Sequence record: PV806339.1
Source: a phage
Length of the DNA: 60,026 bases
Reading direction: 5' to 3' (one strand)
The notes under the pieces are model-generated. The model saw only the letters and a list, made by a program, of their open reading frames with translations. It did no database searches and was not told the origin of the DNA. A program made the position numbers and the translations under genes. Of this stretch, positions 335 through 57,919 are shown piece by piece. The number at the start of each line of letters is the position of its first letter. The first letter of the stretch is position 1.

Positions 335-1810
335 ATGCACGACTATCAGGACGAAGGCGTCCAGTTCATCAAAGACCATCCGTACTGCGGCATGTTCGTA
401 GACCTCGGCTTGGGTAAGACTGTCATGACCGGGACGGCCATGCTAGACCTGATCGCGGACGGCGAAATCAACAAAGTCCTCGTCGTCGCGCCGAAGCGAG
501 TGGCCCGTACCGGGTGGCCGACGGAATTCGACGAGTGGGGGCATCTGTGCTTCTACAAGATGTCGATTATCGCCGGAAACGCCAAAGAGCGCGCAGCGGC
601 CGCGAGTAAGGACTGTCACTTCTACACGATCAGCGTGGATAACATCGCGTGGCTATGTGAGCACTTCAAGACGAAATGGCCGTTCGACGCCGTGGTGCTG
701 GACGAGTCGAGCATGTTCAAATCCCACACCTCGCAGCGCTTCAAACTGCTGCGCCGGGTGCGGAAGTACATCAAACGGATCGTCGAGTTGACGGCCACGC
801 CTGCGGCCGAAGGGTACATGGGTATCTTCTCGCAAATTTACCTGCTGGACGAAGGCGAGCGCTTTGGCTCCACCATCGGCGGTTATCAGGAAAACTACTT
901 CACGCAGAACCGCTACAACTTCAAATGGAAACTTCGCCCCGGTGCGGAAGACGAGATTATTCGGAAGATTTCTGATATATGTTTAGTCATGAAAGCGGAA
1001 GACTACCTTGACATGCACGAACCGAATTTCGTTCCTGTCCCGGTCGAGTTAGACGGGGAGACGGCCGAGCGGTACCGCATGATGGAGGAAGAGAGCCTCG
1101 TCGAGATTATGCCGGACGATTTCGATGAACATCTGGATGACCCAATCGTGATCGAAGCGGAGCAGGCCGCGTCTTTGCAGTCGAAGCTATTGCAGATGTG
1201 CTCAGGCTTCATCTACGACACGAAAATCGTTGGCATAACGCAAGACGACAAGGTCATTAAGCAGAAGGACACGTACAGGCTGCACGACCTGAAATTCGAT
1301 GCACTGGAAGAACTACTGGAAACCACGCTGGCCGATAAAAACGTGCTGATCGCCTATCACTTCAAGCCGACCCTCGAACGACTGAAAGAGCGGTTTAAAG
1401 ATCTGGTGGTCATGGATGATGACGGTAAGTGCATCAAGAAGTGGAACGCCGGAAAGATTCGACTGCTGGCCGCGCACCCTCAGTCAGCGGGACACGGTTT
1501 AAACCTCCAGCATGGCGGCCACGTCATCGTCTACATCGACAATCCGTGGTCACTCGAACGCTTCCTGCAATTCAATGGCCGATTGCACCGTCAGGGGCAG
1601 AAGTACCCGGTTACGATCTACCAGTTCAAAGCCATGCTGCGAACACCGAACGGGCTTCTGGCCGAGACGGCGGACGACGTAGTCATACAGGCGCTGGTCG
1701 AAAAGGAAGACGTGCAGGACGCGTTCTTCGAACTGCTCGAACGTATCAAAGGGCGCATCAAACGCCGCAAGAAATCGAAAAATAAAGGGGTATGGGATGA
1801 CGAAGAGTAA
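335..1810 (+). CDS. SNF2-family DNA helicase (alternative start at 251)
   Basis: Q-motif region HDYQDEGVQF, P-loop GLGKT, DESS (DExx) box, C-terminal helicase motif GLNLQHGG; ends ...VWDDEE. Confidence 0.75.
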   Translation: MHDYQDEGVQFIKDHPYCGMFVDLGLGKTVMTGTAMLDLIADGEINKVLVVAPKRVARTGWPTEFDEWGHLCFYKMSIIAGNAKERAAAASKDCHFYTISVDNIAWLCEHFKTKWPFDAVVLDESSMFKSHTSQRFKLLRRVRKYIKRIVELTATPAAEGYMGIFSQIYLLDEGERFGSTIGGYQENYFTQNRYNFKWKLRPGAEDEIIRKISDICLVMKAEDYLDMHEPNFVPVPVELDGETAERYRMMEEESLVEIMPDDFDEHLDDPIVIEAEQAASLQSKLLQMCSGFIYDTKIVGITQDDKVIKQKDTYRLHDLKFDALEELLETTLADKNVLIAYHFKPTLERLKERFKDLVVMDDDGKCIKKWNAGKIRLLAAHPQSAGHGLNLQHGGHVIVYIDNPWSLERFLQFNGRLHRQGQKYPVTIYQFKAMLRTPNGLLAETADDVVIQALVEKEDVQDAFFELLERIKGRIKRRKKSKNKGVWDDEE

Positions 1811-2366
1811 TGCGCCACTGGCAACCCGGAATCGCCGCTCTAATGCGCCGGACGCCGATACCGAAGCGATGATCTTTCAGGGCTGCAACATCACGCAACT
1901 GGCGAAGCTGTTTCGCATGGAGCGCCGGGACATCACGCCGAAAATCATGGATGTCCCGCCTGTCGGCGAGCGTGGCGGGTACCCGATCTACGCGGTTCAC
2001 GAAGTGGCCCCGTACCTCGTTAAGCCGCTGTACGATGTCGAGACGTACCTGCGCCGCATGAATTTCAAGGATCTGCCGAAGGAGTTGTCGAAAGAGTTTT
2101 GGGCCGGGCAGCGTGCAAAGCAGGACTTCGACATCAAAGCGGGAAACCTGTGGGAAACCGAGAAGGTGATCGAGCACTTCGGCGAGGCGGTGAAGGTGCT
2201 GCGCATGTCGATGTTGCTCATTCCCGACACGCTGGCGCGTCAGGCCGGACTCAGCGAGCCGCAACGTCAGGTCATCACGTCATCCATTGACGCCATGCTG
2301 AACGACCTGTCGAGCGCGCTGATCGATAAGTTCAACGGCGACGAGGTGGATGACGATGAAGTTTAA
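1797..2366 (+). CDS. putative terminase small subunit (189 aa)
   Basis: Position directly upstream of and overlapping TerL; N-terminal HTH-like segment ITQLAKLF; C-terminus ...DEVDDDEV; call by synteny only. Confidence 0.45.
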   Translation: MTKSNAPLATRNRRSNAPDADTEAMIFQGCNITQLAKLFRMERRDITPKIMDVPPVGERGGYPIYAVHEVAPYLVKPLYDVETYLRRMNFKDLPKELSKEFWAGQRAKQDFDIKAGNLWETEKVIEHFGEAVKVLRMSMLLIPDTLARQAGLSEPQRQVITSSIDAMLNDLSSALIDKFNGDEVDDDEV

Positions 2367-9257: not shown

Positions 9258-9551
9258 ATGCCAAAACGTAAAGTTCTCCAGACCGTCATCGTTTACCGCG
9301 ACGGCGCGCGTATCAAACCGTCCATCGGCGAGATCTTCGATTTCAAACAAGCCGAACTGGACAGCATCAACAAAATCAACCCGGATGCCATCGGCCGCCC
9401 GGTGATGGAAGTTGACGTTGAAAATCAGGCTGCACAGGAAGCCGCAGCGCAGCAGGCGAAAGCTGACGCGTCCAAAAAAGACGAGAAGGCTGACGGTGCT
9501 AAGAAAAACGCCAAAGACGATAAAAAGTCTGGCGCGGAAGATGAAGTCTAA
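9258..9551 (+). CDS. hypothetical protein in lambda FI position (97 aa), Lys/Ala-rich, ends ...AEDEV
   Basis: ORF after capsid gene; low-complexity KKDEKADGAKKNAKDDKK region; acidic DEV C-terminus. Confidence 0.45.
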   Translation: MPKRKVLQTVIVYRDGARIKPSIGEIFDFKQAELDSINKINPDAIGRPVMEVDVENQAAQEAAAQQAKADASKKDEKADGAKKNAKDDKKSGAEDEV

Positions 9552-19808: not shown

Positions 19809-19819
19809 GGAGAATCGCT

Positions 19820-33342: not shown

Positions 33343-33623
33343 ATTAAGCCTCGGTTATATTCGTCCACGTATTTTTCATTTTCAGGAGATCGGTCTACCT
33401 GATTAATCTCGCTGAACTCGCAGGAAATAATATCCCCGCTAGGCAGGCGCACCCGCCAAAAAATATCCTCTTCACGCGGCCCGGTGCGTTCCCATTCGAG
33501 CACGGTTCCGTAGTATTTATGCCCGTTGAATCGGTCAGTGAAATGCACGGAGTCGCCTTTAATCGGCCAGCCCGGTTTTATCTTGGCACGGTATTTCCGT
33601 TTTATAGCCTCAACGTCGATCAT
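33339..33623 (-). CDS. hypothetical protein (94 aa)
   Basis: ORF overlapping neighbours in - strand operon. Confidence 0.45.
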   Translation of the reverse strand: MIDVEAIKRKYRAKIKPGWPIKGDSVHFTDRFNGHKYYGTVLEWERTGPREEDIFWRVRLPSGDIISCEFSEINQVDRSPENEKYVDEYNRGLI

Positions 33624-34519
33624 ACTTCATCGTCCTCGAAGTCTTCGTCAAAAAGGTCAGACTGGAACGGCTCACATGATGATGTGCAGCCATCGCCGTC
33701 GTCCGGGTTAGTGCGGGTCAGGTACAGCAGGCGCTGGCGGTCTTCCAGTCCGGCGTCGGCCATAAGCTGATCCGTGTTTCGTTTGCCACGGAACCATGTG
33801 TGGCCGTCTTCCGCTTTAACGTGGCCGTACTGGATTTCCATGTCGCGGTTCCACGTAAACCATTCAGGGTGTTCGTGGGCTATCAGGTACAGCTTTGCAT
33901 TGCTCTTTTTAAAGCAGGTCAGGCAGTTCCCGTAATGCGGCGGGATGTTCAGTTTGAACGGCATGGCATCCCAATAATCGTTCACGTCCTGCTTATCGAA
34001 ACTCCCCCAATGGCAAAGGGGGTACACCAGATTGAATTTCTTGGCCGACGCTTTGTTCGGGTCAGCCCGCTCCGGCTCGTCCGACCGCATTCCGATGGCC
34101 GTCTTGGCACTCCACCCCCGGCGCGCAAGACCATTGCTGCGCATCCAGTGGCGAATCGTCTGCGTTTTCAGATAGTCGCTGCACTTCTGGCGCGATATGT
34201 TCGGGATGCCCTCGACGCTGATCAGGCTTTCAAACGGTTCGCCCTTCCGTGCGGCCGTCTCGAAACTGACGACCCGGTGGCGCATCCCGACACCGTGTTC
34301 CGGACTGGCGTAGCCCTCCAGCCACACCAGATTCAGGCCGAAGTGTTTATCCACCTTGTCGGCGAATATCAGTGTTTCTTCGTGCTCCCGGCCAGTATTG
34401 GCGAACACGAAACGCAGGTCATATTTGTGGCCGTAATTCTCGATCAGGTATGCACAAAGAAAGCCGGACGACTGGCCGCCGGAAAAGCTGACGACAAGCG
34501 GCTCTTTGTTAGTTGGCAT
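33620..34519 (-). CDS. PAPS-reductase-like PP-loop protein (about 299 aa from Met at 34519; ORF extends to 34603)
   Basis: PP-loop VVSFSGGQSS; C-terminal Cys cluster CLTCF...GDGCTSSC; ATG at 34519 after upstream stop; ends ...FEDDEV. Confidence 0.55.
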   Translation of the reverse strand: MPTNKEPLVVSFSGGQSSGFLCAYLIENYGHKYDLRFVFANTGREHEETLIFADKVDKHFGLNLVWLEGYASPEHGVGMRHRVVSFETAARKGEPFESLISVEGIPNISRQKCSDYLKTQTIRHWMRSNGLARRGWSAKTAIGMRSDEPERADPNKASAKKFNLVYPLCHWGSFDKQDVNDYWDAMPFKLNIPPHYGNCLTCFKKSNAKLYLIAHEHPEWFTWNRDMEIQYGHVKAEDGHTWFRGKRNTDQLMADAGLEDRQRLLYLTRTNPDDGDGCTSSCEPFQSDLFDEDFEDDEV

Positions 34520-38399: not shown

Positions 38400-39086
38400 T
38401 TAAATCTCGTCCCACATCTTGATCCAGCGGTTCCGGATCTTGGCCGATACGTTAGCCAGTGGCGCGCCGATTTCCAGTAGCGTTTCACGGTCGATATACT
38501 CGTTGGGGTGAATGCGGTCACTCTCCGGGTCGAAGATGTGGATGGCCGCGCCGAACCCGGCTGACGTGATTTCGCTGCTGCCTTCCTTCGGCCGGAACCA
38601 GACTGGCGGTTCAAACCCGATGCGCCCTTTGATGAAGATGGTACGCGTGGCGATAGCGTCCGGCCACCAGCTTTCTGATGTCGCGGACTTGGTCAGCCAG
38701 ATGGTTCCCGCACCTTTGGCCCGTTCTTCGTCGGCCTTGCGCATGATGTGCGTCATCCCGGTCAGGTGATCTTTCCCGGCGCGCTTCTGGCTGTAAGGGG
38801 GGTTAGCGTAGGCCCAAACGCGGGTCTTCTGGTCGAACCCGTCGCTGGCGTGGATCTCGGCCAGACGTTTTGACCAGTCCTGCTTTAACGCATTGTCTTC
38901 GGCGGTGAAGAAGCGCTGACATTTGGCGTTCTGGCCGTCGGTGAACAGGTCAAGCACGATTGGCCCGTACAGCTTGTTAATCGCTTGAAACAGCCATTCC
39001 GGCGTACGCCATTGGTCGCCGATCATCTTTGGTTCGTGTTCGTCCATGTTTTTCATGGCGTTGAGTGCATCAACATACTGGCTCAT
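38400..39086 (-). CDS. phage-type N6-adenine DNA methyltransferase (228 aa)
   Basis: WRTPEWLF motif and catalytic NPPY (ANPPYS) characteristic of N6A methyltransferases. Confidence 0.7.
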   Translation of the reverse strand: MSQYVDALNAMKNMDEHEPKMIGDQWRTPEWLFQAINKLYGPIVLDLFTDGQNAKCQRFFTAEDNALKQDWSKRLAEIHASDGFDQKTRVWAYANPPYSQKRAGKDHLTGMTHIMRKADEERAKGAGTIWLTKSATSESWWPDAIATRTIFIKGRIGFEPPVWFRPKEGSSEITSAGFGAAIHIFDPESDRIHPNEYIDRETLLEIGAPLANVSAKIRNRWIKMWDEI

Positions 39087-42236: not shown

Positions 42237-43313
42237 TTAAACCTCGTCGTCGTCTTCTTCGTCGTTCAGCGTTCCGGTGTACTCGACTACCTGCCCGGCC
42301 TCGTCCAGCACGCTGATCACCGCACGCAGGGACTTATCGAGTTGGAACAGGTTAGCCATCATGGTCAGGAACTGGCCGCCGTCGGTGCCGTAGCGTTCGA
42401 GCGTGGCGTCGTAGTTCGCATCAACGTCGGCCTCGCCGATGTGGATACCGGACAGGATGGCTTTGTCGGACAGGCGGAAGTACACGGTGTCGATGCCCGG
42501 GCATTGCGTATCGACTTCGAGATCCAGCGCGCGGACAGTCCAGTGACGTGACAGCAGGTCAACCACCGACTCGTCTTTGAAGATGTCCGTGTCCTTCATC
42601 TTGACGTCGTCGCCATCGTCGTGTTTCAGGTGGATAAACGCATCGCCCTTGATGCCGTCCTGCTGGCCGAGAACCGCGCGCTGCATTAACTGGCGCAGCT
42701 CATACTCGCTCGGCAGGAGGTGTTCGACGGGCCATGTGCCGAGCGCGGTACGGATCAGCGCGCTGCACTCTTCTGCCGTCTTCGCGCTCGACGTGAACAC
42801 GTACACGAACGGGGCGGACAGGATGACGTTGACGCGGGAAGGGCGGATAGGCGCGTGTTTCAGCATTTCCGCTTCCACGTCGTCCTTCATCTGCGCCCAA
42901 TCCTTGCGGTTCGGCTCCCAACCCTCGATCTCTTTCTCCCGCAACGCGGCCATGCGCTTCACGACTTCATTTCGTACGCTGACGCCGGGCAACACACGTT
43001 CGCGCTTCTCGATCTGGAAGACGATGGCGTTTGTTCCGGGGATGGCGAGGGCGAATTTACTTTCAACCTCTTCGCCGTACGCTGCAAAGCCCATTGTCTT
43101 GTAAGACGCCTCCGGCGGATCTGACACTTCATGCTTTTCGAGTGCATCGCTAAACGCTCCTTTCGCGAAAGCCGTTACGGCCTCTTCGTCAACGTTCGGC
43201 AGGTTCAGGATCAGGCGGTGCAGCGGCTTGACCTTCTCGTTACCGTCGTTGGCCGCGTCATACAGCGCGCCGAGGTGCAAGATAATGGCTTTCTCATAAC
43301 CCTTGATTTTCAT
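42237..43313 (-). CDS. recombination-associated RdgC-like protein (358 aa), ends ...EEDDDEV
   Basis: Length and several colinear segments resemble RdgC (e.g. ALGTWPVEHLLPSEYEL); identification tentative. Confidence 0.4.
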   Translation of the reverse strand: MKIKGYEKAIILHLGALYDAANDGNEKVKPLHRLILNLPNVDEEAVTAFAKGAFSDALEKHEVSDPPEASYKTMGFAAYGEEVESKFALAIPGTNAIVFQIEKRERVLPGVSVRNEVVKRMAALREKEIEGWEPNRKDWAQMKDDVEAEMLKHAPIRPSRVNVILSAPFVYVFTSSAKTAEECSALIRTALGTWPVEHLLPSEYELRQLMQRAVLGQQDGIKGDAFIHLKHDDGDDVKMKDTDIFKDESVVDLLSRHWTVRALDLEVDTQCPGIDTVYFRLSDKAILSGIHIGEADVDANYDATLERYGTDGGQFLTMMANLFQLDKSLRAVISVLDEAGQVVEYTGTLNDEEDDDEV

Positions 43314-44455: not shown

Positions 44456-44827
44456 TTAAACTTCGTCGTCGTCCGAAACGTCGGTGTCAGTACAGGTCAC
44501 AACGGCCTGAATGAACATGCGGCCAGACGGGTAAGTCACCAGCGCGGATTCCATGCTGAACCGTTGGCCGTGGTGTTTCATGGCGTTCCGGATGGAAGAA
44601 TTAAGGCTGGCCCGCATCTTCGCTTTGAGGGCATTGGCCTCGTCCTGTACCTGCGAAAGCGTACGGTCAAGCGGGAGTTCTTGGGACAGGGTGTACACGC
44701 CACCGACTTCCAGCGCAATGAGGTTCCCCACGACGCTGTACACGCGCACGCGTGACGGCAGTTCAACATCCGGCTCGGTCGTCATCATTGCGCCAGTCAG
44801 TTCGGCCGGGCTTAGTTCTTTGCTCAT
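44456..44827 (-). CDS. hypothetical protein (123 aa), ends ...VSDDDEV
   Basis: First gene of - strand early operon; GGAG RBS; promoter upstream. Confidence 0.5.
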   Translation of the reverse strand: MSKELSPAELTGAMMTTEPDVELPSRVRVYSVVGNLIALEVGGVYTLSQELPLDRTLSQVQDEANALKAKMRASLNSSIRNAMKHHGQRFSMESALVTYPSGRMFIQAVVTCTDTDVSDDDEV

Positions 44828-46401: not shown

Positions 46402-46415
46402 TCCGGGGGCGCGTC

Positions 46416-46616
46416 ATGTTAATGGCTATTATCTTGATCGGTTATTCAATTATTGCGGCTGTTATATATCGTGACGCGCGGGCGGTGTGGCGTCGCTGTA
46501 AGGTTGAGCGCCGTTATTCTTTCGGGCGTAAAACTTTTTATTTACGCGAGCGTAAAACAGGCCGTTTGATCGGCTGTTCAAATAATTTTTTCACTCTTCT
46601 GTTACAAGGGGCTTAA
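46416..46616 (+). CDS. small membrane protein (66 aa)
   Basis: N-terminal TM LMAIILIGYSIIAAVIY. Confidence 0.4.
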   Translation: MLMAIILIGYSIIAAVIYRDARAVWRRCKVERRYSFGRKTFYLRERKTGRLIGCSNNFFTLLLQGA

Positions 46617-46618
46617 TC

Positions 46619-50544: not shown

Positions 50545-50613
50545 AACCGAATTTTCGGGGAACGCCGCACGATCCCTTTTAACCTGTTTTGACATATTCC
50601 CCATGTATCAAAG

Positions 50614-50637
50614 GCCGCCTATCCGGGCGGCTTTTTT
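50614..50637 (+). terminator. Rho-independent terminator ending the + strand early cluster
   Basis: Stem GCCGCC / GGCGGC with loop tatccg followed by TTTTTT. Confidence 0.7.
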
Positions 50638-50648
50638 ATTGCCTTTCT

Positions 50649-50846
50649 GATATACGCGGCGTGCGTTGGTGTGCCGTGTATCGGGCCTATGGTGCGCCGC
50701 TGTAGTTGATATACGCGGCGTGCGTATGGCGGCCCGTCCTGCTTTCTTCCTTCCTGATATACACGACGTGCATCAATGCGGCCTTATGTGCGCGCTATGC
50801 CGTATGGCGGCCCGCTATGGTGCTGCATGATATACGCGGCGTGCGT
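50649..50846. repeat. four copies of the promoter-core motif in reverse orientation (GATATACGCGGCGTGCGT)
   Basis: Copies at 50649-50666, 50708-50725, 50755-50775 (variant), 50829-50846; reverse complement of the spacer core of the 45494 and 48128 promoters; no matching -10 on the - strand. Confidence 0.8.
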
Positions 50847-51307
50847 TGGTGTGCGGCTGTATATGGCTATCTATTCCCCTTTCTATGGTATCCCCTGCTA
50901 TATGGTGTGACGGGGCGTTATTGTATGCCCTTATTTCGGCCGCTATGGGGGCTAGGCGGGGCGATCGTGGTGTAAGGTATGCCTACCTATTACGATCTAT
51001 CTTGCGAGGCGTGGCGGGCGGCTGAGAAAGAATTACGGTCACGATTTCAAAAAGGTACTTACCCGCCAGTCGGTCGGCCCGGGGGTGCGCAGAGCCGCTT
51101 TCTCGGAAAATGGGCCGGATCTGCCATAGCCCCGCTTTGCGAAATCAATAACTTAGCCGAAAAACCGAATTTCTCCCGTAGGGAGTCTCCAAATCGCGGT
51201 GGTGACGGGGGTGCGGGCGGAACGGCGCTTTAGCCCCGCAATCGGTTGATTGTATTACTGTTTTACCCGGTGGGCGGGTGCTGACCAAGTCCACGGCAGC
51301 AGTATCA

Positions 51308-51590
51308 GGTTACAAGTTACAGACGGGTTACAAGTTTTTCGCTTTGTAACCTCTAACTATCTCACTGTTTTTACTGCGTTTTTCTCCTATAAAGTTACAA
51401 GTTACAAATAAAGTATAGTAATAGTCCAGAAATAGAGAAAACGAGGTAAAAATGTGAATTTTATATAGGGGGGAATTTTACCCGGGCGCTAAACCACTTC
51501 GGTTTGTAACCTGAATACCCGGATCGCTGAGAGCCGCGCCACCACTGGCCCGAACATGGTTACAAACGGCGAAAATGGTATGTAACCTTT
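51308..51590. repeat. iteron array of GTTACAA / TTGTAAC heptamers (at least 8 copies, both orientations)
   Basis: GGTTACAAG at 51308 and 51325, TTGTAACC at 51344 and 51504, tandem GTTACAAGTTACAA at 51394-51407, GGTTACAAAC at 51558, TGTAACC at 51580; AT-rich surroundings. Confidence 0.8.
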
Positions 51591-51608
51591 TGCCCGTTTT
51601 GGCCGTTT

Positions 51609-51662
51609 TCTTGCGTTTCAATAACAAATTTGTTATACGTCTTGCCCCGAATCCTGCTATAA
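51609..51662 (+). promoter_or_regulatory. candidate promoter/operator region upstream of XRE regulator
   Basis: Palindrome ACAAATTTGT, TATAAT hexamer, repeated TTTGTTATA. Confidence 0.35.
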
Positions 51663-51696
51663 TTTATTTGTTATAAACAGCAAAAATAGGTCAAAA

Positions 51697-51984
51697 ATGC
51701 AGCACGATGAATGCCGTGAAACGTTGATGGATTTCAAACGACAATTACAGACACATTTGAAGGCGATTTTACGTCGTCAGGGGGTCACACAGAGCGCGCT
51801 TGCGACGATGATCGGCGTACACCAGTCAAGATTAAGTTTCATGCTTAACAGTGACGCAGACAGAGTTTCGATCGATAAACTCATTGAAGCGATAGTGAAA
51901 CTGGACGGCGTGTTTATGGTGAAAATCGGAGATCAAACAGACATAAATCGAGTGCGGTACAAGGAGTGCGAAGACAACGTTTGA
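51697..51984 (+). CDS. XRE-family helix-turn-helix transcriptional regulator (95 aa)
   Basis: HTH GVTQSALATMIGVHQSRLSFML typical of Cro/CI-type regulators. Confidence 0.65.
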   Translation: MQHDECRETLMDFKRQLQTHLKAILRRQGVTQSALATMIGVHQSRLSFMLNSDADRVSIDKLIEAIVKLDGVFMVKIGDQTDINRVRYKECEDNV

Positions 51985-51995
51985 CAGACAAAAAT

Positions 51996-52020
51996 AAGGC
52001 CGGATTTCCCGGCCTTTTTA
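51996..52020. terminator. bidirectional Rho-independent terminator between convergent genes
   Basis: Stem AAGGCCGG / CCGGCCTT with loop atttc; A-run upstream and T-run downstream. Confidence 0.7.
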
Positions 52021-52024
52021 TCGA

Positions 52025-54610
52025 CTAAACTTCGTCTTCATCGTCAAACGGGTCTGGCTTTTTGCCGACCAGTTTTTCGACTTCTGCGTCATGCCGTTTT
52101 AACGTAGTCTGCACCCACGACGAGTTAAGTTTCCCCGCGTCGTCGAATGCCCCTTTGACCCGCTTCCTGACATAAACGCGGCCAGATTCGCCGCCAAATT
52201 TGACCACGCCGCCCGGCTTGAAGCCCAATTCCATAAGCATGTTTTTCAGGCGGTTCGTCTTCGGCATTTCCACGTCTGTCATTTCGAGGAATGCGTTTTT
52301 CAGGGACGGCACGAAGATGACGTCGCGGTGTACGCCCGGCGTCGTTCCGTCACGAAGCATTTGTGCGATTGCGCCTTCCACGCCATCGTCAGACGCGTCG
52401 GCCATGACCGCGAATGCTTCGGTGTCCTGCGGTGCGTGTCCTTTGGCATCGAAATCCTTTCCGATCTCCCAATCGAGGAACCACTTTTTGATAGCAGGTG
52501 CGTGGTTTTCGATTGCCCGGTACACGTTTTTGAAGAAGCGCGCGCGTTCAGTCTTCGACCCGTAAACCCGCTCCATGTCCAGATGATTTTCTGCCTGCGT
52601 GGACACCACCAGATAACGACGCTGGTTTTCATCGAGTGGCAATGCGTTGAAGTGGTTGGTGAACATCATTTTGCTGCTGGTGTTCACGACTTCCTTCGGC
52701 TTGCGGCCCTTTGGCTCAATCTGGAAGCGATCGTTTGTGATGAATTCCTTCTGGCGTTCCACCGCGCTGTACCGATCGCCTTTGTCGTAGATCTCTTCCA
52801 CGATTTTCAGGATGTGGCCCTCGGCCCAATCGCTGAAACGGCCATTCATCACGGTGTTTGACACATAGCCCACGTTCGACGCGCCGAGCATCCGCGACAT
52901 GATGATGCCGAGCGTCGTTTTACCAGAACCATGCGCACCACGGATCAGAAGCGAGTAGTTGATGCGTTTCGTTGGGTGCTGAATAACCCACGCCATCCAG
53001 TCCAGAACATAGCGGCGTTCCTTCTCGTTCGGGAAAAGCACGATGAAGAAGTCTTTGATGATCTCCAGCGCCTTTTTGTCGTACGGAGAAAGGTCAGTCG
53101 CGGCCTCCGGAATGGATTCAGGGTCAAAAGAGTTCAGCCACGTACGCCCACGGTCGTCAATAAAGAATTCCGGCCCGATCACCCCCTCTTTCGGCTTCCA
53201 CACAGATTCCGGCATGTCACCGTGCATCGCCGGGTAGTACATCGCGTCCCAAACGATAGGAACCGGGCGGACTACCGACGCATAGTGGACAGGCTTGAAG
53301 GCTTCTTCCTCAAACACGCATTTTTTCGCAAAAGCGACGTCGAAAGCGCCTTTTGTGATGTAATCGCCCGTGGTTTTTTCGATAAAACTGTCATTTGCCT
53401 TCGAGAAAACGAAGTTTTTCAGCCACTGCGGAGTCTCTTTTGACCCGTAATCGAAGCCCAAAAGCTCCCTTTTGTCACCAGCAGTGAGGCGGAAGTTGTT
53501 GATCCTGCGGTATGCTTCGGCCGCAATCTGGACGATGGCCTTGCGGGTAAGCCCGAAAATCTGCGCTTTTTTGAATGATTCGGCCCACGCATTCCAGTCA
53601 TTCGCCTCGGTACACTCGGCGAAAGCCTCGCGGTACTCGATGGCGCGTTCTTCCTGCTCGGCTTTCTCGATGTCCTGCACTTCTTTGATGATGGTGCCGA
53701 GCGTGATCAGTCGAGTCGAGTTGTGCGCGAAGCCCTTATCCCACTTGTATTCGAAATCACCTTCGTCGAAGTTGTGTGCCTGCATGGCCCATTCGCGGGC
53801 AATGGCCTTCGCCTCGTCCTGATCGCGGCAGGAAATTTGCAGCGCGGCCAGTACGGTGATGTAGTTCTCGTAATCTTCCGGGTTCGGGTATTTCAGGACG
53901 ATGTCGCGCAGTTCATCGTACGTGCCGTCCCACTTTTTGACGTCAGACAGCGCGGCCCAATCGTCATCGTCTGCCGAACCGATAGACTCATAACCGTTCA
54001 TTGGCCGTTTGACCATTGTCCAGCCCAAGTCCTTCGCGTATCGGTCGAATTCGGCGGCGATCTCGCGAGCGGTATCGAGGCTGATCTCTTCGAGGTCAAG
54101 GTCGGCGGCGTTGTTCAGCGGATTCTCGCCATCAATCCAGTAATAGTCGCGCTTGGTGTCCGGGTGGATACCGTACGCAACGAACTGCTGGCCGTCGGCG
54201 AGGATTTCAACTGCATGGCGCTGGCCGAAGTCGTCTTCCCACACGCCGGATTTCACTTTGGCGAACGGGTTTTCGGTTCGGTACAGGTAGAGTTTCTTCG
54301 GCTCCCGGCCGATACGACATGGCGCTGCACCGACGTTCTCGGCGATCCAGTCTGCCATGTGCGCCACGGCGTCTTCATCGTAAACGTCGATGTCAACCGC
54401 CGGGGTGTATTTGGTCAGAATCCCGATGCCGTTATTCGTATAGCGTTTCGCCCAACGCTGGATCTGCTCCTTATCATTGATTGTTCGTTCCCAATCTTCA
54501 CCGATAGGGCGTTTGCCCGCACCCTTCTTATCGGCGTCCGGGGCGTAGATAGGTACGATGGTGTACCCATTCCCCCAAAGCGTTTCGCCGTACTCTTGCC
54601 AGTAGTTCAT
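52025..54610 (-). CDS. bifunctional DNA primase-polymerase / SF3 (D5/P4-type) helicase (861 aa), ends ...DDEDEV
   Basis: N-terminal prim-pol-like region (GIGILTKYTPAVDIDVYD); C-terminal Walker A LIRGAHGSGKTTLG. Confidence 0.7.
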   Translation of the reverse strand: MNYWQEYGETLWGNGYTIVPIYAPDADKKGAGKRPIGEDWERTINDKEQIQRWAKRYTNNGIGILTKYTPAVDIDVYDEDAVAHMADWIAENVGAAPCRIGREPKKLYLYRTENPFAKVKSGVWEDDFGQRHAVEILADGQQFVAYGIHPDTKRDYYWIDGENPLNNAADLDLEEISLDTAREIAAEFDRYAKDLGWTMVKRPMNGYESIGSADDDDWAALSDVKKWDGTYDELRDIVLKYPNPEDYENYITVLAALQISCRDQDEAKAIAREWAMQAHNFDEGDFEYKWDKGFAHNSTRLITLGTIIKEVQDIEKAEQEERAIEYREAFAECTEANDWNAWAESFKKAQIFGLTRKAIVQIAAEAYRRINNFRLTAGDKRELLGFDYGSKETPQWLKNFVFSKANDSFIEKTTGDYITKGAFDVAFAKKCVFEEEAFKPVHYASVVRPVPIVWDAMYYPAMHGDMPESVWKPKEGVIGPEFFIDDRGRTWLNSFDPESIPEAATDLSPYDKKALEIIKDFFIVLFPNEKERRYVLDWMAWVIQHPTKRINYSLLIRGAHGSGKTTLGIIMSRMLGASNVGYVSNTVMNGRFSDWAEGHILKIVEEIYDKGDRYSAVERQKEFITNDRFQIEPKGRKPKEVVNTSSKMMFTNHFNALPLDENQRRYLVVSTQAENHLDMERVYGSKTERARFFKNVYRAIENHAPAIKKWFLDWEIGKDFDAKGHAPQDTEAFAVMADASDDGVEGAIAQMLRDGTTPGVHRDVIFVPSLKNAFLEMTDVEMPKTNRLKNMLMELGFKPGGVVKFGGESGRVYVRKRVKGAFDDAGKLNSSWVQTTLKRHDAEVEKLVGKKPDPFDDEDEV

Positions 54611-55130: not shown

Positions 55131-55547
55131 ATGTCTGGTATCTTCGAACAACTGCTGGCTGAACAACAAAAAACCAACACCCTGCTGGAAGGCGTTCTGG
55201 CAGCACTGAAAGGCGGCGCGGTGAACACTTCCGCTGACGCTGGTAGCGAAACTACTGAAAAAACCACCACCACCAAAGGCGGTGCTAAGGGCGGCGCGAA
55301 AGGCGGTGCAGGTAAAACCGAAACTAAAGCGGTCAAGCCTAAACACACCAAAGACGAAGTAGTCGCGGCTGTCGTTGCGGTTAAAGACGCGTTCGGCGCG
55401 CCGGAAGCCAAGAAAATCACCGCACACTTCGGCCTCGCCAAAGTCGCGGAAGCGAAGGAAGAACACTTCGACGAAATCGTCGAAATGTGTGAAGCCAAAC
55501 TGGCTGAAAAAGATGAAGGCGGTAACGGCGAAGAAGACGACGTTTAA
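55131..55547 (+). CDS. hypothetical Lys/Ala/Gly-rich protein (138 aa), ends ...GEEDDV
   Basis: RBS GGAG; KGGAKGGAKGGAGK repeat; flanked by promoter and terminator. Confidence 0.55.
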   Translation: MSGIFEQLLAEQQKTNTLLEGVLAALKGGAVNTSADAGSETTEKTTTTKGGAKGGAKGGAGKTETKAVKPKHTKDEVVAAVVAVKDAFGAPEAKKITAHFGLAKVAEAKEEHFDEIVEMCEAKLAEKDEGGNGEEDDV

Positions 55548-55562
55548 TCTTTCGCCCCGCAT

Positions 55563-55587
55563 CGGCTCCCTTCGGGGGGCCGTTTTT
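55563..55587 (+). terminator. Rho-independent terminator with UUCG tetraloop
   Basis: Stem CGGCTCCC / GGGGGCCG, loop TTCG, then TTTTT. Confidence 0.65.
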
Positions 55588-55608: not shown

Positions 55609-55938
55609 GTGACCAGCATTACTTTCACCAACGTAGCAACATCCGGCGGCGCAGTTCTCGCGCGCACTTGGGCGGAGTTTCGTTTTCAAATCGGTGATCG
55701 CGATGTGCTGTTCAGAGTTACTTCACCTGTTTCGAAACACGAAGCGCCGCTGCTCGTAACCCATGCTGCATCGGGCTATCGAGTGTGCGACGTCTGGTGG
55801 GACGACGTGGCGAAGACTCGCTTTAACGCAGGCCGCAATAATTACAGCGGGGCAGGCGCTAGGGCATTGGTAGCGACGATTGAGCGAGTCGGCGAACACC
55901 GATTCCTCAATGCGATAAAGGCGTATCCGAATGAGTAG
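55609..55938 (+). CDS. hypothetical protein (109 aa; GTG start within ORF 55375..55938)
   Basis: RBS ACGGAGAGG before GTG at 55609. Confidence 0.4.
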   Translation: MTSITFTNVATSGGAVLARTWAEFRFQIGDRDVLFRVTSPVSKHEAPLLVTHAASGYRVCDVWWDDVAKTRFNAGRNNYSGAGARALVATIERVGEHRFLNAIKAYPNE

Positions 55939-57268
55939 TAAGTCACTGTTAGTCCGCATCATGCGGGAATTCGGCGGTGGCGGCCACTCAATCTTCGCGC
56001 CTTCTGCGTCAGCGCGTTGGATCGCATGTTCTGGAAGCCTGATAGCCGGGCTTTTCGAGCATGACGAAACCATCTACGAGGCGGCGGAAGGCACGGTGGC
56101 CCACGGAATCGCCGAACAATGGCTGCGAACGGATGTCCGGCCAACCCATTTAATCGGTACGGTCGAGACGATCACGGAAGGCGGTGTCAGCCATGACATC
56201 CCCATTACTCGGTCAATGCTCGACTCGGTTCAGGAGTACGTTGACTGGTGCCGATTTGAAGAGGGTGAAATGTTCACGGAAATCCGGGTCTGGTTTACCG
56301 ACCTGATGCCGCGAGCGAACCCGGATGAACCTGACGAAGACCCGATCGAGTTTGTCGCTCAGGGCGGAACGGCGGATAATATCATCATCCGCGACCGAAC
56401 CTTGATCGTGACCGACCTGAAATACGGGACTGGCGTTCAGGTTTTCGCGGAAGGGAACCCGCAGGCGCTACTTTACGCGTACGGTGCGTACCGCGCTTTC
56501 TCGGATGAATACGAGTTTGACCGTATTGTCATCCGGATCGCGCAGCCGAGGCTCGACCATTTCGATACGTGGGAAATCACGATTGACGAATTGTTAGAGT
56601 TCGCGGAGTATGCCCGGGAGCGAATTGCAGCGGCATGGAGCCTTACCGCGCCGCGCCGCGCATCCCTGAAAGGGTGTCGCTTTTGCCGGGCAGCACATAA
56701 CTGCGCAGCGATAGCGTACATGATGGAATGCGCAGTGGGCGGGGACGTGGAATTCCTTGAAGCTGAATTCGGGGAGGAAGAAATGTCAGTATTGCGTGAT
56801 GCGCTGGCGCAGGAATATAAGTTCCGGCGTGCGCAGTTCGGAAACCTGACAACCGAGCAGATGGCGAAGATCCTGCCATACCGCAAGGTGGTCGAAAACT
56901 GGTTCTCGCGCCTTGACTTCGAACTGGAACGCCGCGCAATGAACGGCGAGAAGGTACCGGGTCAAAAGCTGGTGGAGTCGCGGACAAACCGTAAATTCGC
57001 CAACGAGAAAGATGCGATCGCGCTGTTCCGGTTCCTCGATATTGACGAGGACAAGTACATCGAACGCAAACTGCGTACCCCGGCGCAGATGGAAGAAGTG
57101 CTTAGGGATGAATTGGGCGTGTCCCGGGCTGGCGCGCCGAACATCATCGCGGGGATCGTCTACAAGCCGGAAGGCAAGCCGACACTGGCACCGCTGACCG
57201 ATAAGCGGCCACCACTGGACGGCAAGTATTCCGGGGCGTGGGACGACGAAGATGATGACGAAGTGTAA
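55931..57268 (+). CDS. PD-(D/E)xK exonuclease, Cas4/RecB-like with Cys cluster (DUF2800-like, 445 aa), ends ...DDEDDDEV
   Basis: Nuclease motif region IVTDLKYG; N-terminal Cys (WIACSG) plus C-terminal CRFCRAAHNC; position before SSB and DNA polymerase. Confidence 0.55.
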   Translation: MSSKSLLVRIMREFGGGGHSIFAPSASARWIACSGSLIAGLFEHDETIYEAAEGTVAHGIAEQWLRTDVRPTHLIGTVETITEGGVSHDIPITRSMLDSVQEYVDWCRFEEGEMFTEIRVWFTDLMPRANPDEPDEDPIEFVAQGGTADNIIIRDRTLIVTDLKYGTGVQVFAEGNPQALLYAYGAYRAFSDEYEFDRIVIRIAQPRLDHFDTWEITIDELLEFAEYARERIAAAWSLTAPRRASLKGCRFCRAAHNCAAIAYMMECAVGGDVEFLEAEFGEEEMSVLRDALAQEYKFRRAQFGNLTTEQMAKILPYRKVVENWFSRLDFELERRAMNGEKVPGQKLVESRTNRKFANEKDAIALFRFLDIDEDKYIERKLRTPAQMEEVLRDELGVSRAGAPNIIAGIVYKPEGKPTLAPLTDKRPPLDGKYSGAWDDEDDDEV

Positions 57269-57322
57269 ACCCGTAAAACCGTAGAAAGTAAACCCGTAAA
57301 ACAGTAAACCGAGGATATTAAG

Positions 57323-57919
57323 ATGGCCGAGAAATTAGTCCCTGCGAAAAAAGTCAAGAATGGCGTGCTGTACAAATCTGGTCACATCAAGATTTCTAAC
57401 GTACGTGCTTCTTACCCGCACCTCGATAAGCCGTACGGCGGTGAAGACGGCGGCGAGCCGAAATACTCGCTGACGCTTTTGATGCCGAAAGACAGCCACG
57501 GCGAGATCGAGAAAATCATCCGTGAGCAGATCGAAGTCACCAAGAAGAACCACAAGACAGGCGCGCTGAAAGTCGCCCCGTCCATGTTGTTCATCAAAGA
57601 CGGTGATACCGATTTTCCGGATAAACCGGAATGCGAAGGGATGTGGGTTATCTCCGCACGCGAAAGCAAACGCCCGGATGTGTATAACATCGAGCGCGAA
57701 GAGTTGACTACCTCTTCCGAAATTCTGGAAGAGATCTACGGTGGTTGTTGGGTGTCGGTTGTCATCCGTCCGTGGTCGCAGGAAAACAAATTCGGCAAAC
57801 GCGTTAACGCCAACCTGATTTCCGTTCTGAAACGCAAAGACGACGAGCCGTTCGGTGAAGGTCGTGTGGACACGTCCGACGCGTGGGATGAAGACGAAGA
57901 TTGGGAAGACGAAGTGTAA
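57323..57919 (+). CDS. single-stranded DNA-binding protein, T7 gp2.5-like (DUF2815-like, 198 aa), ends ...EDWEDEV
   Basis: ASYPHLDKPY and F.KDGD motifs colinear with T7 gp2.5; acidic C-terminal tail. Confidence 0.65.
   Translation: MAEKLVPAKKVKNGVLYKSGHIKISNVRASYPHLDKPYGGEDGGEPKYSLTLLMPKDSHGEIEKIIREQIEVTKKNHKTGALKVAPSMLFIKDGDTDFPDKPECEGMWVISARESKRPDVYNIEREELTTSSEILEEIYGGCWVSVVIRPWSQENKFGKRVNANLISVLKRKDDEPFGEGRVDTSDAWDEDEDWEDEV

What the first reader, a model, noticed from the sequence alone, without database searches (positions are those of the whole stretch)
1797..57919. Shared acidic C-terminal tail (D/E run ending in D/E-V-COOH) on at least nine unrelated proteins
Read directly from the translations. 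Terminase small subunit candidate (1797-2366) ends DEVDDDEV; FI-position protein (9258-9551) AEDEV; PAPS-reductase-like (33620-34519) FEDDEV; RdgC-like (42237-43313) EEDDDEV; 123-aa protein (44456-44827) SDDDEV; primase-helicase (52025-54610) DDEDEV; 138-aa protein (55131-55547) GEEDDV; Cas4-like nuclease (55931-57268) AWDDEDDDEV; gp2.5-like SSB (57323-57919) DEDEDWEDEV. The SNF2 helicase ends VWDDEE. The tails use different codons (gac gat gaa gtt / gac gac gag gtt / gaa gac gaa gtg ...), so this is protein-level convergence, not a repeated DNA element. Established background: T7 gp2.5 and gp4 carry acidic C-terminal tails ending in Phe that dock on the DNA polymerase, and E. coli SSB uses DDDIPF as a hub. 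Inference: this phage uses a Val-terminated acidic tail as a common docking tag, recruiting replication, recombination, a putative DNA-modifying enzyme and even packaging proteins to one hub (SSB OB-fold or DNA polymerase). The breadth beyond replication proteins is the unusual part.
Basis: partly seen in the sequence, partly recalled or inferred. Interest (0 to 1): 0.9.

Follow-up and report, generated by a model that had tools for sequence, protein, structure and literature searches.

The report
Shared co-evolving C-terminal tag on phage proteins
About ten unrelated DNA-handling proteins of this Chi-like phage end in the same short acidic tail tipped by one valine. In related phages the tip switches on all these proteins together (to I, L, M or GL), which points to a common docking site that has not been identified.

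Summary
The window is a complete Chivirus genome (Casjensviridae). Nine of 77 proteins end in [DE]3-V-COOH, against 0.012 expected, and 9 of the 14 [DE]3V strings in the proteome sit at the exact C-terminus. Codons differ, and five tails have no adjacent downstream gene, so the signal lies in the protein.

The main new result is that the tag is family-wide and its tip is lineage-specific. It is V in the Chi, Redjac and Zhongling viruses and I in several metagenomic lineages. It is L in Pseudomonas, Aeromonas and Achromobacter phages, M/I in the Kokobel group and xGL in BcepNazgul. Within a genome, 3-12 non-homologous proteins share the tip, and there were at least four independent concerted switches. 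The recurrent carriers are SSB, gp03-like, TerS, gp17/DUF7443, RdgC, primase and exonuclease. SNF2, Dam, ParB-like and others carry it in some genomes.

The tip follows phage lineage, not host. Xylella phage Salvo, T7 and three other control phages lack the multi-protein tag.

The best reading is a docking motif that copies the phage's own SSB tail and is read by one co-evolving phage receptor. The receptor is unidentified. The SSB groove is favoured. The polymerase is disfavoured, because tags persist where family A polymerase is replaced by family B.

I found no prior description. I class it as a new variant of the T7-type acidic-tail principle.

The parts
2346..2363 (+). Tail VDDDEV of the small terminase subunit (gene 1797-2366)
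   Evidence: The translation is shown. The protein matches PHROG 141 'terminase small subunit' (E 7e-59) and Pfam DUF1441. Of 103 full-length homologues, 88 carry a strict tag.
9531..9548 (+). Tail GAEDEV of gp17, a DUF7443 protein in the lambda FI position just after the major head gene (gene 9258-9551)
   Evidence: The protein has a conserved 57-aa N-terminal domain, a hypervariable K/A-rich linker and an invariant tip. Of 28 homologues, 27 end D[DE]EV and one ends EDEI.
33623..33640 (-). Tail FEDDEV of the PAPS-reductase-like protein (gene 33620-34519)
   Evidence: The protein matches Pfam PAPS_reduct and PHROG 424.
38403..38420 (-).
   Evidence: Pfam Dam matches at E 1e-30. Orthologues end TWDEV in XAP3, NEDEEL in BUCT552 and SFDDL in DoubleBarrel.
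42240..42257 (-). Tail EDDDEV of the RdgC-like protein (gene 42237-43313)
   Evidence: Of the 150 best RdgC-family cluster representatives, 111 end in [DE][DEG][LIVMF].
44459..44476 (-). Tail SDDDEV of the 123-aa DUF7609 protein (gene 44456-44827)
   Evidence: The orthologues found in DoubleBarrel and BUCT552 lack the tag, so this carrier is lineage-specific.
52028..52045 (-). Tail DDEDEV of the primase-helicase (gene 52025-54610; Prim-Pol, PriCT_2 and DUF5906 domains)
   Evidence: No gene lies downstream on that strand, and a terminator-like hairpin follows the stop codon.
55527..55544 (+). Tail GEEDDV of gp03 (gene 55131-55547), a 138-aa protein of unknown function that opens the exonuclease-SSB-polymerase operon
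   Evidence: The protein in this position carries the lineage's tip in most tag-bearing genomes examined (12 of the 15 tag-bearing genomes); BcepNazgul's positional counterpart was not checked, and Stilesk and L020 carry an aliphatic tip that differs from their other tags.
57248..57265 (+). Tail EDDDEV of the DUF2800 / PD-(D/E)XK (Cas4-like) exonuclease (gene 55961-57268; the ORF opens at 55931)
57899..57916 (+). Tail DWEDEV of the gp2.5-like SSB (gene 57323-57919)
   Evidence: All 120 homologues end in an aliphatic residue. The protein matches the crystallised Enc34 ORF6 almost along its whole length (5ODJ, E 1e-117).
1790..1807 (+). Near-miss tail VWDDEE of the SNF2 helicase (gene 281-1810), which is acidic but has no aliphatic tip
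   Evidence: Orthologues carry a full tag in L021 (DDDEI), BUCT552 (EEEL), phiAxp-2 (LEEM) and BcepNazgul (AAGL).
57323..57898 (+). OB-fold core of the SSB, the favoured but unproven receptor for the tags
   Evidence: In Enc34 ORF6 crystals the C-terminal tail lies in the concave DNA-binding sheet of the neighbouring molecule (PMC5686142). The AlphaFold2 core is confident (pLDDT 87-98) but the tail is not docked.
57986..60025 (+). Family A DNA polymerase, untagged (ends ...GYFYRKD), the alternative receptor by analogy with T7
   Evidence: The C-terminus is conserved across the tag-bearing relatives with a family A polymerase, and also in tag-free eiAU, but differs in Salvo. The enzyme is replaced by a family B polymerase in phiAxp-2, which keeps its tags.

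Best explanation
The tails are a short linear docking motif. Each is an acidic run ending in a single aliphatic residue with a free carboxylate. The motif sits at the end of a disordered extension on about ten otherwise unrelated proteins that act on DNA: SSB, primase-helicase, Cas4-like exonuclease, RdgC-like protein, Dam methyltransferase, PAPS-reductase-like enzyme, small terminase, the FI-position protein gp17, gp03 and gp60.

In each genome the motif copies the tip of that phage's own gp2.5-type SSB tail. I therefore read it as SSB-tail mimicry: whatever site reads the SSB tail also reads these proteins.

My preferred candidate, at roughly 0.3, is the basic ssDNA-binding groove of the SSB itself. 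On this model free SSB would hold or concentrate the tagged proteins and release them where it meets ssDNA, or the tags would help evict SSB locally. This would link replication, recombination, DNA modification and packaging at one site.

Shown: the motif, its statistics, its conservation and its concerted switching. Inferred: that it docks, that a single receptor reads it, and which protein that receptor is.
For: 1. Enrichment. Nine of 77 proteins carry the tail against 0.012 expected. In five other Casjensviridae genomes, 5-11 called genes end in [DE][DE][LIMVF] against about 0.2-0.3 expected. In BcepNazgul, 11 annotated proteins end in GL.

2. Concerted, lineage-specific tips on non-homologous proteins.
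- V in Chi (9 proteins), XAP3 (7) and Stilesk (4).
- I in L017 (5 of 5), L021 (6 of 6), L022 (4), and L018 and L023 (3 each).
- L in SS2019XI (9), BUCT552 (10) and L020 (4).
- L/M in phiAxp-2 (12), and M/I in Kokobel1 and L019.
The within-genome identity of the tip is 0.82 against 0.43 after shuffling, reached in 0 of 100,000 shuffles.

3. Independent switches. Trees of TerL, SSB and primase place L021 (I) as sister to BUCT552 (L), apart from the other I lineages, so there were at least four independent switches.

4. Selection acts on the protein. Synonymous codons vary in every lineage.

5. Typical motif architecture. gp17 has a conserved domain, an indel-rich linker and an invariant four-residue tip.

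6. Parallel gradients. SSB and TerS homologues show the same V, then I, then L order with falling identity to Chi, and they share tips on the same contigs.

7. Mimicry of the SSB tip. The last three residues of other tags match the same genome's SSB tip at 0.78, against 0.32 for SSB tips of other genomes.

8. The tip follows phage lineage, not host. V-type Stilesk and M/I-type Kokobel1 both infect Providencia, and V-type phages are recorded on Salmonella, Providencia and Xanthomonas.

9. Evidence for the SSB groove. The SSB is the only carrier in every genome, including Salvo and L024, which lack the other tags. In Enc34 ORF6 crystals the tail lies in the neighbour's DNA-binding sheet, and removing the tail changes DNA discrimination. 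The same paper cites work showing that the T7 gp2.5 tail competes with ssDNA for one surface (PMC5686142).

10. Controls. T7 (only gp2.5 and gp4, both F-tipped), eiAU, PJ16, BR228a and Salvo lack a multi-protein tag.
Against: No binding was tested here. AlphaFold2 on the SSB with 61 sequences left the tail at pLDDT 56-65, so it was not docked in the groove.

The ssDNA-contact residues of the groove are invariant or nearly so across V-, I- and L-type SSBs. The SSB core columns that track the tip do not coincide with them and are confounded by phylogeny.

A covariation scan over ten proteins singled out none: each had 2.5-5.6% of columns separating I-type from L-type genomes.

An SSB whose groove holds ssDNA cannot also hold a tag, so simple recruitment to SSB-coated DNA does not follow from this model. 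There is also no obvious reason for TerS and gp17 to dock on SSB.

The Kokobel/Proteus clade mixes L, I, M and V tips, and its primases and exonucleases lack the tip. L024 has Y-tipped primase, exonuclease and SNF2 next to an L-tipped SSB. More than one reader is therefore possible.
Confidence: 0.55

Rival explanations
1. T7-like polymerase hub. The tags dock on basic patches of the phage DNA polymerase, as the F-tipped tails of T7 gp2.5 and gp4 dock on gp5. The other carriers would then travel with the replisome.
For: T7 gives the precedent. The gp2.5 tail anchors on the front basic patch of gp5, a DTDF peptide that mimics the gp4 tail is seen bound to gp5 in PDB entry 6P7E, and the terminal Phe is essential (PMC12339929). 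T7 gp2.5 ends DEDGDF and gp4 ends NDTDF. In the window, the SSB and the primase-helicase both carry the tag while the polymerase is untagged and has a conserved C-terminus.
Against: phiAxp-2 carries a family B polymerase with no detectable similarity to the Chi family A enzyme, yet it keeps about 12 tags. Salvo keeps the family A polymerase (41% identical) but has no tags outside its SSB. Docking of TerS, gp17, Dam and ParB-like proteins on a polymerase has no precedent. The tip is aliphatic in all 120 SSB homologues and never Phe.
Confidence: 0.12
2. No hub. Each tail acts in cis as a DNA mimic that folds back on its own protein's DNA-binding surface. This would limit non-specific DNA binding and keep the protein soluble, as described for several SSBs.
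For: Every carrier of known function binds or modifies DNA. Removing the Enc34 SSB tail allows dsDNA binding (PMC5686142). The same paper cites increased DNA affinity after tail removal in T7 gp2.5 and T4 gp32.
Against: Cis action on unrelated DNA-binding surfaces does not predict that the last residue should be identical on 5-12 proteins of one genome, nor that it should switch together in at least four lineages. BcepNazgul tips such as PAAGL, SASGL and CGL are barely acidic. In gp17 only the last four residues are invariant, after a variable linker that is itself basic. Cis and trans roles can coexist, as they do in T7.
Confidence: 0.15
3. A phage receptor other than SSB or polymerase reads the tag. 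Candidates include the lambda gpA-type large terminase, the primase-helicase hexamer, and a small conserved protein of unknown function.
For: The TerS C-terminal tail is the element that binds TerL in P22, and acidic TerS tails exist elsewhere, for example in PaP3 (PMC7672466). TerS and the FI-position protein carry the tag in nearly all tag-bearing genomes. TerL is present and untagged in all of them.
Against: TerL is equally conserved in tag-free Salvo. There is no precedent for the SSB, primase, exonuclease, RdgC and Dam proteins all docking on a terminase. The covariation scan did not single out TerL or any other protein. No PDZ, TPR or clamp-like domain was found in 30 uncharacterised non-structural proteins.
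Confidence: 0.15
4. A host factor reads the tag, for example a protease or adaptor, a chaperone, an SSB-tail-binding pocket or the beta clamp. The tips would then differ because the hosts differ.
For: L-type phages infect Pseudomonas, Aeromonas, Achromobacter and Burkholderia, whereas V-type phages mostly infect Enterobacterales. C-terminal residues are known determinants for bacterial proteases and for clamp binding; this last point rests on my own knowledge and was not tested.
Against: V-type Stilesk and M/I-type Kokobel1 both infect Providencia. V-type XAP3 is recorded on Xanthomonas citri, though I did not verify that host assignment. Sister phages BUCT552 and L021 differ in tip. The tag does not resemble the SSB-Ct motif DDDIPF or the clamp motif QL[SD]LF. 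The polymerase, the enzyme most in need of a clamp, is untagged.
Confidence: 0.08
5. By-product of a nucleotide-level signal (a Shine-Dalgarno-like GAGG for a coupled downstream gene, a repeated DNA element or gene conversion), or an artefact of gene calling.
For: Four tails abut or overlap the next start codon. One of them, in the RdgC gene, reads GAC GAG GTT TAA CA ATG, which contains GAGGT.
Against: Five tails have no same-strand start within 55 nt, and the primase has no downstream gene at all. Synonymous positions vary freely in all lineages, and L-type tips (CTN or TTG) are not Shine-Dalgarno-like. Only real genes carry the motif among 481 six-frame ORFs. The stop codons agree with the RefSeq annotation.
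Confidence: 0.01

Closest known systems
Bacteriophage T7 acidic C-terminal tails of gp2.5 (SSB) and gp4 (helicase-primase), which dock on gp5 DNA polymerase
   Same: The SSB has the same fold: Enc34 ORF6 is described as structurally homologous to T7 gp2.5 (PMC5686142). In both systems a disordered acidic tail ends in one hydrophobic residue with a free carboxylate. Both the SSB and the primase-helicase carry it. In T7 the tail also occupies the SSB's own DNA-binding surface.
   Different: The tip is aliphatic (V, I, L or M) in 120 of 120 SSB homologues and never Phe. The primase-helicase is a Prim-Pol/DUF5906 enzyme with no similarity to gp4 detected. The tag sits on about 10 proteins, not 2, including packaging and DNA-modification proteins. 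The tip is lineage-specific and switches in concert. The tags persist when the family A polymerase is replaced by a family B enzyme.
Bacterial SSB C-terminal tip (SSB-Ct, DDDIPF) interactome
   Same: Both use an acidic, intrinsically disordered tail with a hydrophobic C-terminal residue as the docking element that organises genome-maintenance proteins.
   Different: The topology is inverted. In bacteria one tail on SSB is read by many partner pockets. Here many proteins carry the tail, which implies one or a few readers. The sequence also differs, with no Pro-Phe.
Hub-and-motif systems built on sliding clamps (bacterial beta-clamp binding motifs, eukaryotic PIP boxes on PCNA, and C-terminal clamp-binding tails of several T4 proteins). 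This comparison is recalled from my own knowledge.
   Same: Many functionally different DNA enzymes share one short terminal motif that gives access to a single hub. The clients include polymerase partners, nucleases and methyltransferases.
   Different: No clamp gene or clamp-like domain was recognised in this phage (RefSeq annotation; Pfam). The motif is acidic rather than hydrophobic with a Gln, the polymerase lacks it, and packaging proteins are among the clients.
C-terminal tails of small terminase subunits (P22 gp3 binding to TerL; the acidic tail of PaP3 TerS)
   Same: In each case a flexible C-terminal tail on TerS serves as the contact element. The PaP3 tail is acidic and disordered (PMC7672466).
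   Different: Here the TerS tip is identical to the tip of the replication and recombination proteins of the same genome and co-varies with them. No such link has been described for P22 or PaP3.

Membership tests
T7-type acidic-tail docking system (gp2.5/gp4 tails to gp5) | [quoted passage not shown] | tested here: met
   The window SSB matches Enc34 ORF6 (PDB 5ODJ) at E 1e-117 over residues 1-196. That protein is reported as a structural homologue of T7 gp2.5 with a disordered acidic tail (PMC5686142). In the AlphaFold2 model the tail has pLDDT 56-65.
T7-type acidic-tail docking system (gp2.5/gp4 tails to gp5) | The replicative primase-helicase carries an equivalent tail | tested here: met
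   The primase-helicase ends PFDDEDEV. Its orthologues carry the lineage tip in XAP3, L017, L021, L022, SS2019XI, BUCT552, phiAxp-2 and BcepNazgul, but not in Stilesk, L018, L019, L023, Kokobel1 or DoubleBarrel.
T7-type acidic-tail docking system (gp2.5/gp4 tails to gp5) | The C-terminal residue is an aromatic Phe | tested here: not met
   Among 120 SSB homologues the terminal residue is L in 72, I in 35, V in 9 and M in 4, and F in none. T7 gp2.5 and gp4 end in DF.
T7-type acidic-tail docking system (gp2.5/gp4 tails to gp5) | The receptor is a basic patch on the family A DNA polymerase | tested here: inconclusive
   No binding test was possible. Indirect evidence points the other way: tags are retained in phiAxp-2, which has a family B polymerase, and are absent in Salvo, which has the family A polymerase.
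Bacterial SSB-Ct hub | The conserved tip is D-D-D-I-P-F, carried on the SSB only and read by many partner proteins | tested here: not met
   The tip is [DE]3V with no Pro-Phe, and it is present on 10 proteins of the window.
Sliding-clamp binding motif clients | A clamp is encoded or recruited, and clients carry a hydrophobic QL[SD]LF-like motif | tested here: not met
   No clamp appears in the annotation or among the Pfam hits. The tails are acidic and lack the motif. Recruitment of the host clamp was not testable.
PDZ or TPR 'carboxylate-clamp' ligands (class III PDZ x-[DE]-x-V; EEVD-type) | A PDZ, TPR or similar C-terminal-peptide-binding domain is present in the system | tested here: not met
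   Pfam scans of 43 window proteins, including 30 uncharacterised non-structural ones, found no such domain at E up to 0.01. A divergent or novel reader cannot be excluded.
Short linear motif (SLiM) in a disordered C-terminal extension | A short invariant core lies next to a variable, disordered flank, recurs on unrelated proteins and is conserved among orthologues | tested here: met
   The gp17 alignment shows an invariant tip after an indel-rich linker. The motif recurs on 10 unrelated proteins. It is conserved in the SSB, TerS, gp17 and RdgC families.

The most novel reading that the evidence does not exclude
Casjensviridae phages use a private, co-evolving C-terminal address code of the form acid run plus V, I, L, M or GL. 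Up to a dozen replication, recombination, DNA-modification and packaging proteins would carry it. The code would gather them on a single phage-built platform, for example an SSB-based assembly or condensate, to form a combined replication-packaging factory. Divergence of the code between lineages would keep the interactome of one phage insulated from that of related co-infecting phages.
Probability: 0.3. Interest if true: 0.9.

Novelty: new variant of a known kind. Interest (0 to 1): 0.8.

Why it matters
This would be a compact, sequence-readable interaction network in a well-known phage family. It would extend the T7 two-protein acidic-tail principle to about ten proteins, and it would link DNA packaging and DNA modification physically to replication.

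The concerted V/I/L/M/GL switches supply ready-made specificity controls for experiments: the phage's own tip against a foreign one. They may also explain incompatibility between related phages.

The tag offers a simple way to flag new members of the replication-packaging machinery among proteins of unknown function, such as gp03, gp17/DUF7443 and gp60/DUF7609. Its short peptide could serve as a handle for pull-downs, as a localisation tag or as an inhibitor.

Tried and rejected
1. Shine-Dalgarno or DNA-repeat origin. I rejected this because five of the nine tails have no adjacent downstream gene and the codons vary.

2. Gene-call artefact. I rejected this because the stops agree with RefSeq and no spurious ORF carries the motif.

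3. AlphaFold2 of the SSB with a 61-sequence alignment, to see whether the tail docks in cis. The tail had pLDDT 56-65, so the result is inconclusive.

4. AlphaFold2 of gp17 with 27 sequences. Mean pLDDT was 53, which is unusable, so I ran no fold search.

5. Mutual information between SSB core columns and the tip residue. The result is dominated by phylogeny (74 of 87 nearest neighbours share the tip), and the top columns are not the reported DNA-contact residues.

6. A scan of ten proteins for columns that separate I-type from L-type genomes. All gave 2.5-5.6%, so no candidate emerged.

7. A phyletic profile for a gene present only in tag-bearing genomes. None was found apart from carriers themselves, namely gp17 and RdgC.

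8. Enrichment of carriers in the early block against the late block of the window. It was not significant (2 of 30 against 8 of 47, P = 0.30), so I make no such claim.

9. A search for multi-protein tagging outside Casjensviridae through distant RdgC-bearing phages (PJ16, a Nonanavirus, and BR228a, a Hollowayvirus). None was found.

10. Pfam identification of accessory carriers in phiAxp-2, SS2019XI and BcepNazgul. Almost all remained unknown.

11. Virion proteomics of the PIN1 and PIN2 phages, to learn whether gp17 is a virion protein. The gene numbering in the paper is ambiguous, so I did not use it.

12. Eight literature searches and one targeted term check of the phage chi genome paper. 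I found no description of the shared tag.

Full report
**What the window is.** The 60,026-bp window is a complete, circularly permuted genome of a Chi-like siphophage (genus Chivirus, family Casjensviridae). It is 99.8% identical over the tested 5.9 kb to Salmonella phage KFS-SE1. The two ends of the window join to complete the VRR-NUC endonuclease gene. I transferred the 73-gene RefSeq annotation of KFS-SE1 onto the window by tblastn. Seventy-two genes mapped, and with five extra ORFs the working set is 77 proteins.

**Checking the observation.**
- Nine of the 77 proteins end in [DE]3V. Composition predicts 0.012, and shuffling only the last 20 residues of each protein predicts 0.063. The Poisson probabilities are about 1e-23 and 4e-17.
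- Nine of the 14 occurrences of [DE]3V anywhere in the proteome are at the very C-terminus.
- None of the roughly 400 spurious ORFs of at least 40 aa carries the motif.
- A tenth carrier had been missed. The protein that RefSeq calls a second PAPS reductase is a Dam-type methyltransferase by Pfam, and it ends MWDEI.
- The SNF2 helicase ends VWDDEE, which is acidic but lacks the aliphatic tip.
- The DNA polymerase, TerL and all virion and lysis proteins are untagged.

**Protein level or DNA level.** The last three codons differ among the nine genes at their synonymous positions. Five tails have no same-strand start within 55 nt, and the primase gene is followed only by a terminator-like hairpin. 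A ribosome-binding-site by-product or a repeated DNA element therefore does not explain the pattern. The same free variation at synonymous sites is seen in every other lineage examined.

**Who carries the tag.** Pfam and PHROGs identify the following carriers:
- the small terminase (DUF1441, PHROG 141);
- a Prim-Pol/DUF5906 primase-helicase;
- a DUF2800 / PD-(D/E)XK exonuclease;
- the DUF2815 SSB;
- an RdgC-like protein;
- a PAPS-reductase-like protein;
- a Dam methyltransferase;
- three proteins of unknown function: gp03, gp17 (DUF7443, in the lambda FI position) and gp60 (DUF7609).

The SSB matches Enc34 ORF6, whose crystal structure is known, almost along its full length (5ODJ, E 1e-117).

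**The tag is family-wide and its tip is lineage-specific.** I fetched whole genomes of progressively more distant Casjensviridae and listed all C-termini without relying on gene calls.

| Genome | Tips observed |
|---|---|
| Proteus phage DoubleBarrel | five tags ending L, L, L, I, M |
| Pseudomonas phage SS2019XI | nine ending [DE][DE]L (DDL six times) |
| Aeromonas phage BUCT552 | ten ending EEL or EDL |
| Achromobacter phage phiAxp-2 | twelve ending DEL, GEL, EEL, EEM, DEM or EDM |
| Burkholderia phage BcepNazgul | eleven annotated proteins ending GL, four of them DPAAGL |
| Xylella phage Salvo | none apart from an acidic SSB tail |

Expected counts are about 0.2-0.3 per genome.

By orthology, some carriers recur across genera: SSB, the gp03-position protein, TerS, gp17, RdgC, primase and exonuclease. 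SNF2 helicase, Dam, a gp55-like protein, a ParB-like protein, a RusA-like resolvase and a DnaQ-like exonuclease carry the tag in some genomes.

Metagenomic contigs recovered through SSB homologues added further lineages:
- L017, the closest outgroup of the V clade, has I on all five carriers in the fetched region.
- L021 has D[DE]I on six of six.
- L022 has four I tips, and L018 and L023 have three each.
- L019 has M, M and I.
- L020 has four L.

Xanthomonas phage XAP3 has seven V-type tags.

**Statistics and phylogeny of the concerted change.** The within-genome identity of the tip residue is 0.82, against 0.43 for shuffled labels, and no shuffle in 100,000 reached the observed value.

Neighbour-joining trees of TerL, SSB and primase agree on three points. 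L-type lineages are basal. The V clade plus L017 form one branch. L021 (I-type) is sister to BUCT552 (L-type), apart from the other I-type lineages. Counting the M-rich Kokobel clade and the GL state of BcepNazgul against its neighbour L020, there were at least four independent events in which several non-homologous proteins changed their last residue together.

Large homologue sets tell the same story.
- All 120 SSB homologues end in an aliphatic residue (L 72, I 35, V 9, M 4). V is confined to relatives at least 67% identical.
- TerS homologues are V at 72% identity or above, then I, then L.
- SSB and TerS from what appear to be the same contigs share their tips.
- Of 28 gp17 homologues, 27 end D[DE]EV and one ends EDEI, despite a hypervariable linker.
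- Of the 150 best RdgC-family cluster representatives, 111 carry the tag.
- In each genome the other tags resemble that genome's own SSB tip: the last three residues match at 0.78, against 0.32 across genomes.

**Host or phage.** Two Providencia phages differ in tip. Stilesk is V-type and Kokobel1 is M/I-type. V-type phages are recorded on Salmonella, Providencia and Xanthomonas. The tip therefore tracks phage lineage, which argues for a phage-encoded reader.

**Controls.** T7 shows only its two known F-tipped tails, DEDGDF on gp2.5 and NDTDF on gp4. eiAU shares the polymerase, DUF2800 and DUF2815 module but belongs to another family, and it has no multi-protein tag. The same is true of PJ16 and BR228a.

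**What reads the tag.** I could not establish this.

The T7 analogy points to the polymerase (PMC12339929). However, phiAxp-2 and L024 carry a polymerase with no detectable similarity to the Chi family A enzyme. It belongs to PHROG 1252 and its best PDB matches are family B polymerases. phiAxp-2 nevertheless keeps about 12 tags, and Salvo keeps the family A enzyme without tags. This weakens the polymerase as the sole reader.

The SSB is the only universal carrier, and it keeps its tail even in the tag-poor genomes. In crystals of Enc34 ORF6 the tail lies in the DNA-binding sheet of the neighbouring molecule, and the authors note the same contact in T7 gp2.5 and two other DUF2815 structures. 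Removing the tail alters DNA discrimination (PMC5686142).

Several results speak against it, or at least fail to support it:
- AlphaFold2 did not dock the tail.
- The DNA-contact residues are invariant across tip types.
- Covariation scans were uninformative.
- A groove filled with ssDNA cannot also bind a tag.

TerL is a further candidate, because TerS tails bind TerL in P22 (PMC7672466). No PDZ, TPR or clamp-like domain was found in the phage.

**Comparison with known systems and novelty.** The principle of an acidic disordered tail ending in a hydrophobic residue and used for docking is established for T7 gp2.5 and gp4 and for bacterial SSB. The system here fails the T7 membership test on the aromatic tip, and probably on the receptor. 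Its topology is the reverse of the bacterial SSB hub: many tails and few readers.

Four features are new. The tag spreads to about ten proteins, including packaging and DNA-modifying proteins. The tip is aliphatic. The tip forms a lineage-specific code. That code switches in concert. Eight literature searches and a term check of the phage chi genome paper found no description of this. I rate it a new variant of a known kind, with high interest.

**Verdict.** The common-docking-tag interpretation is strongly supported by comparative evidence, but no binding has been tested. The identity of the hub remains open: the SSB groove is favoured at about 0.3, the polymerase is disfavoured, and other phage proteins remain possible.

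Noticed in passing
window 59982-60026 joined to 1-288: The window is a circular permutation of a complete genome. Joining its two ends completes the 110-aa VRR-NUC endonuclease gene, which overlaps the end of the polymerase gene.
   Followed up: yes
window 38400-39086 (-): RefSeq names this protein 'phosphoadenosine phosphosulfate reductase', but Pfam identifies a Dam N6-adenine methyltransferase (E 1e-30). It carries a variant tag, MWDEI.
   Followed up: yes
window 57248-57265, 57899-57916, 1790-1807, 38403-38420; also L018, L019, L022, L023, L028: An aromatic-acidic element, W-D-D, lies upstream of the tip in the SSB, exonuclease, SNF2 and Dam proteins. In several I/M-type lineages the exonuclease ends at ...WDD or ...WDDE with no aliphatic tip. 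This may be a second, older shared element.
   Followed up: partly
L011 6507-8600 (phiAxp-2); L024 6621-8663: The replicative polymerase has undergone non-orthologous replacement within Casjensviridae. A family B-like enzyme (PHROG 1252, with PDB matches to family B polymerases) occupies the position of the family A polymerase between the SSB and the VRR-NUC gene.
   Followed up: partly
L024 489-3044 (-), 4615-5952, 8926-10554: In this family B polymerase contig the primase, exonuclease and SNF2 helicase end in SDY, EEY and ESY. The SSB ends DDL and TerS has no tag. This may be a separate aromatic-tipped variant.
   Followed up: no
L005/L006 (BcepNazgul): 8803-9096, 9682-10395, 19343-19825, 46204-46872: Four BcepNazgul proteins end in the identical hexapeptide DPAAGL: Nazgul19, the RusA-like resolvase, Nazgul35 and TerS. 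Eleven annotated proteins in total end in GL, and the tips are barely acidic.
   Followed up: partly
RdgC family, proteins P0149-P0298: Of the 150 best cluster representatives of the RdgC-like family, 111 end in [DE][DEG][LIVMF], mostly D[DE]DEL (L 91, V 7, I 7, F 6). The tag on this family therefore reaches well beyond the cultured Casjensviridae. Two RdgC-bearing phages of other groups showed no multi-protein tag.
   Followed up: partly
window 33339-33623 (-): A 94-aa ORF lies between the nucleoside 2-deoxyribosyltransferase gene and the PAPS-reductase-like gene and has no counterpart in KFS-SE1. Its ATG overlaps the stop codon of the tagged upstream gene (GTA TGA). It has no Pfam family.
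   Followed up: no
window about 51985-52024 and 55548-55585: GC-rich hairpins followed by runs of T, resembling intrinsic terminators, lie directly after the primase stop codon (aaaaaggccgggaaatccggccttattttt) and the gp03 stop codon (ccccgcatcggctcccttcggggggccgttttt).
   Followed up: no
window 55131-55547 and 9258-9551: gp03 and gp17 both combine a small conserved domain with a K/G/A/T-rich low-complexity linker and the acidic tip. This gives a polyampholyte layout: a basic linker followed by an acidic end. The AlphaFold2 model of gp17 had a mean pLDDT of only 53.
   Followed up: partly
window 44900-45600 and 50550-51700: These stretches lack confidently mapped genes. KFS-SE1 gp61 has no counterpart in the window, and only short, low-GC3 ORFs are present. 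They may be regulatory or origin regions.
   Followed up: no
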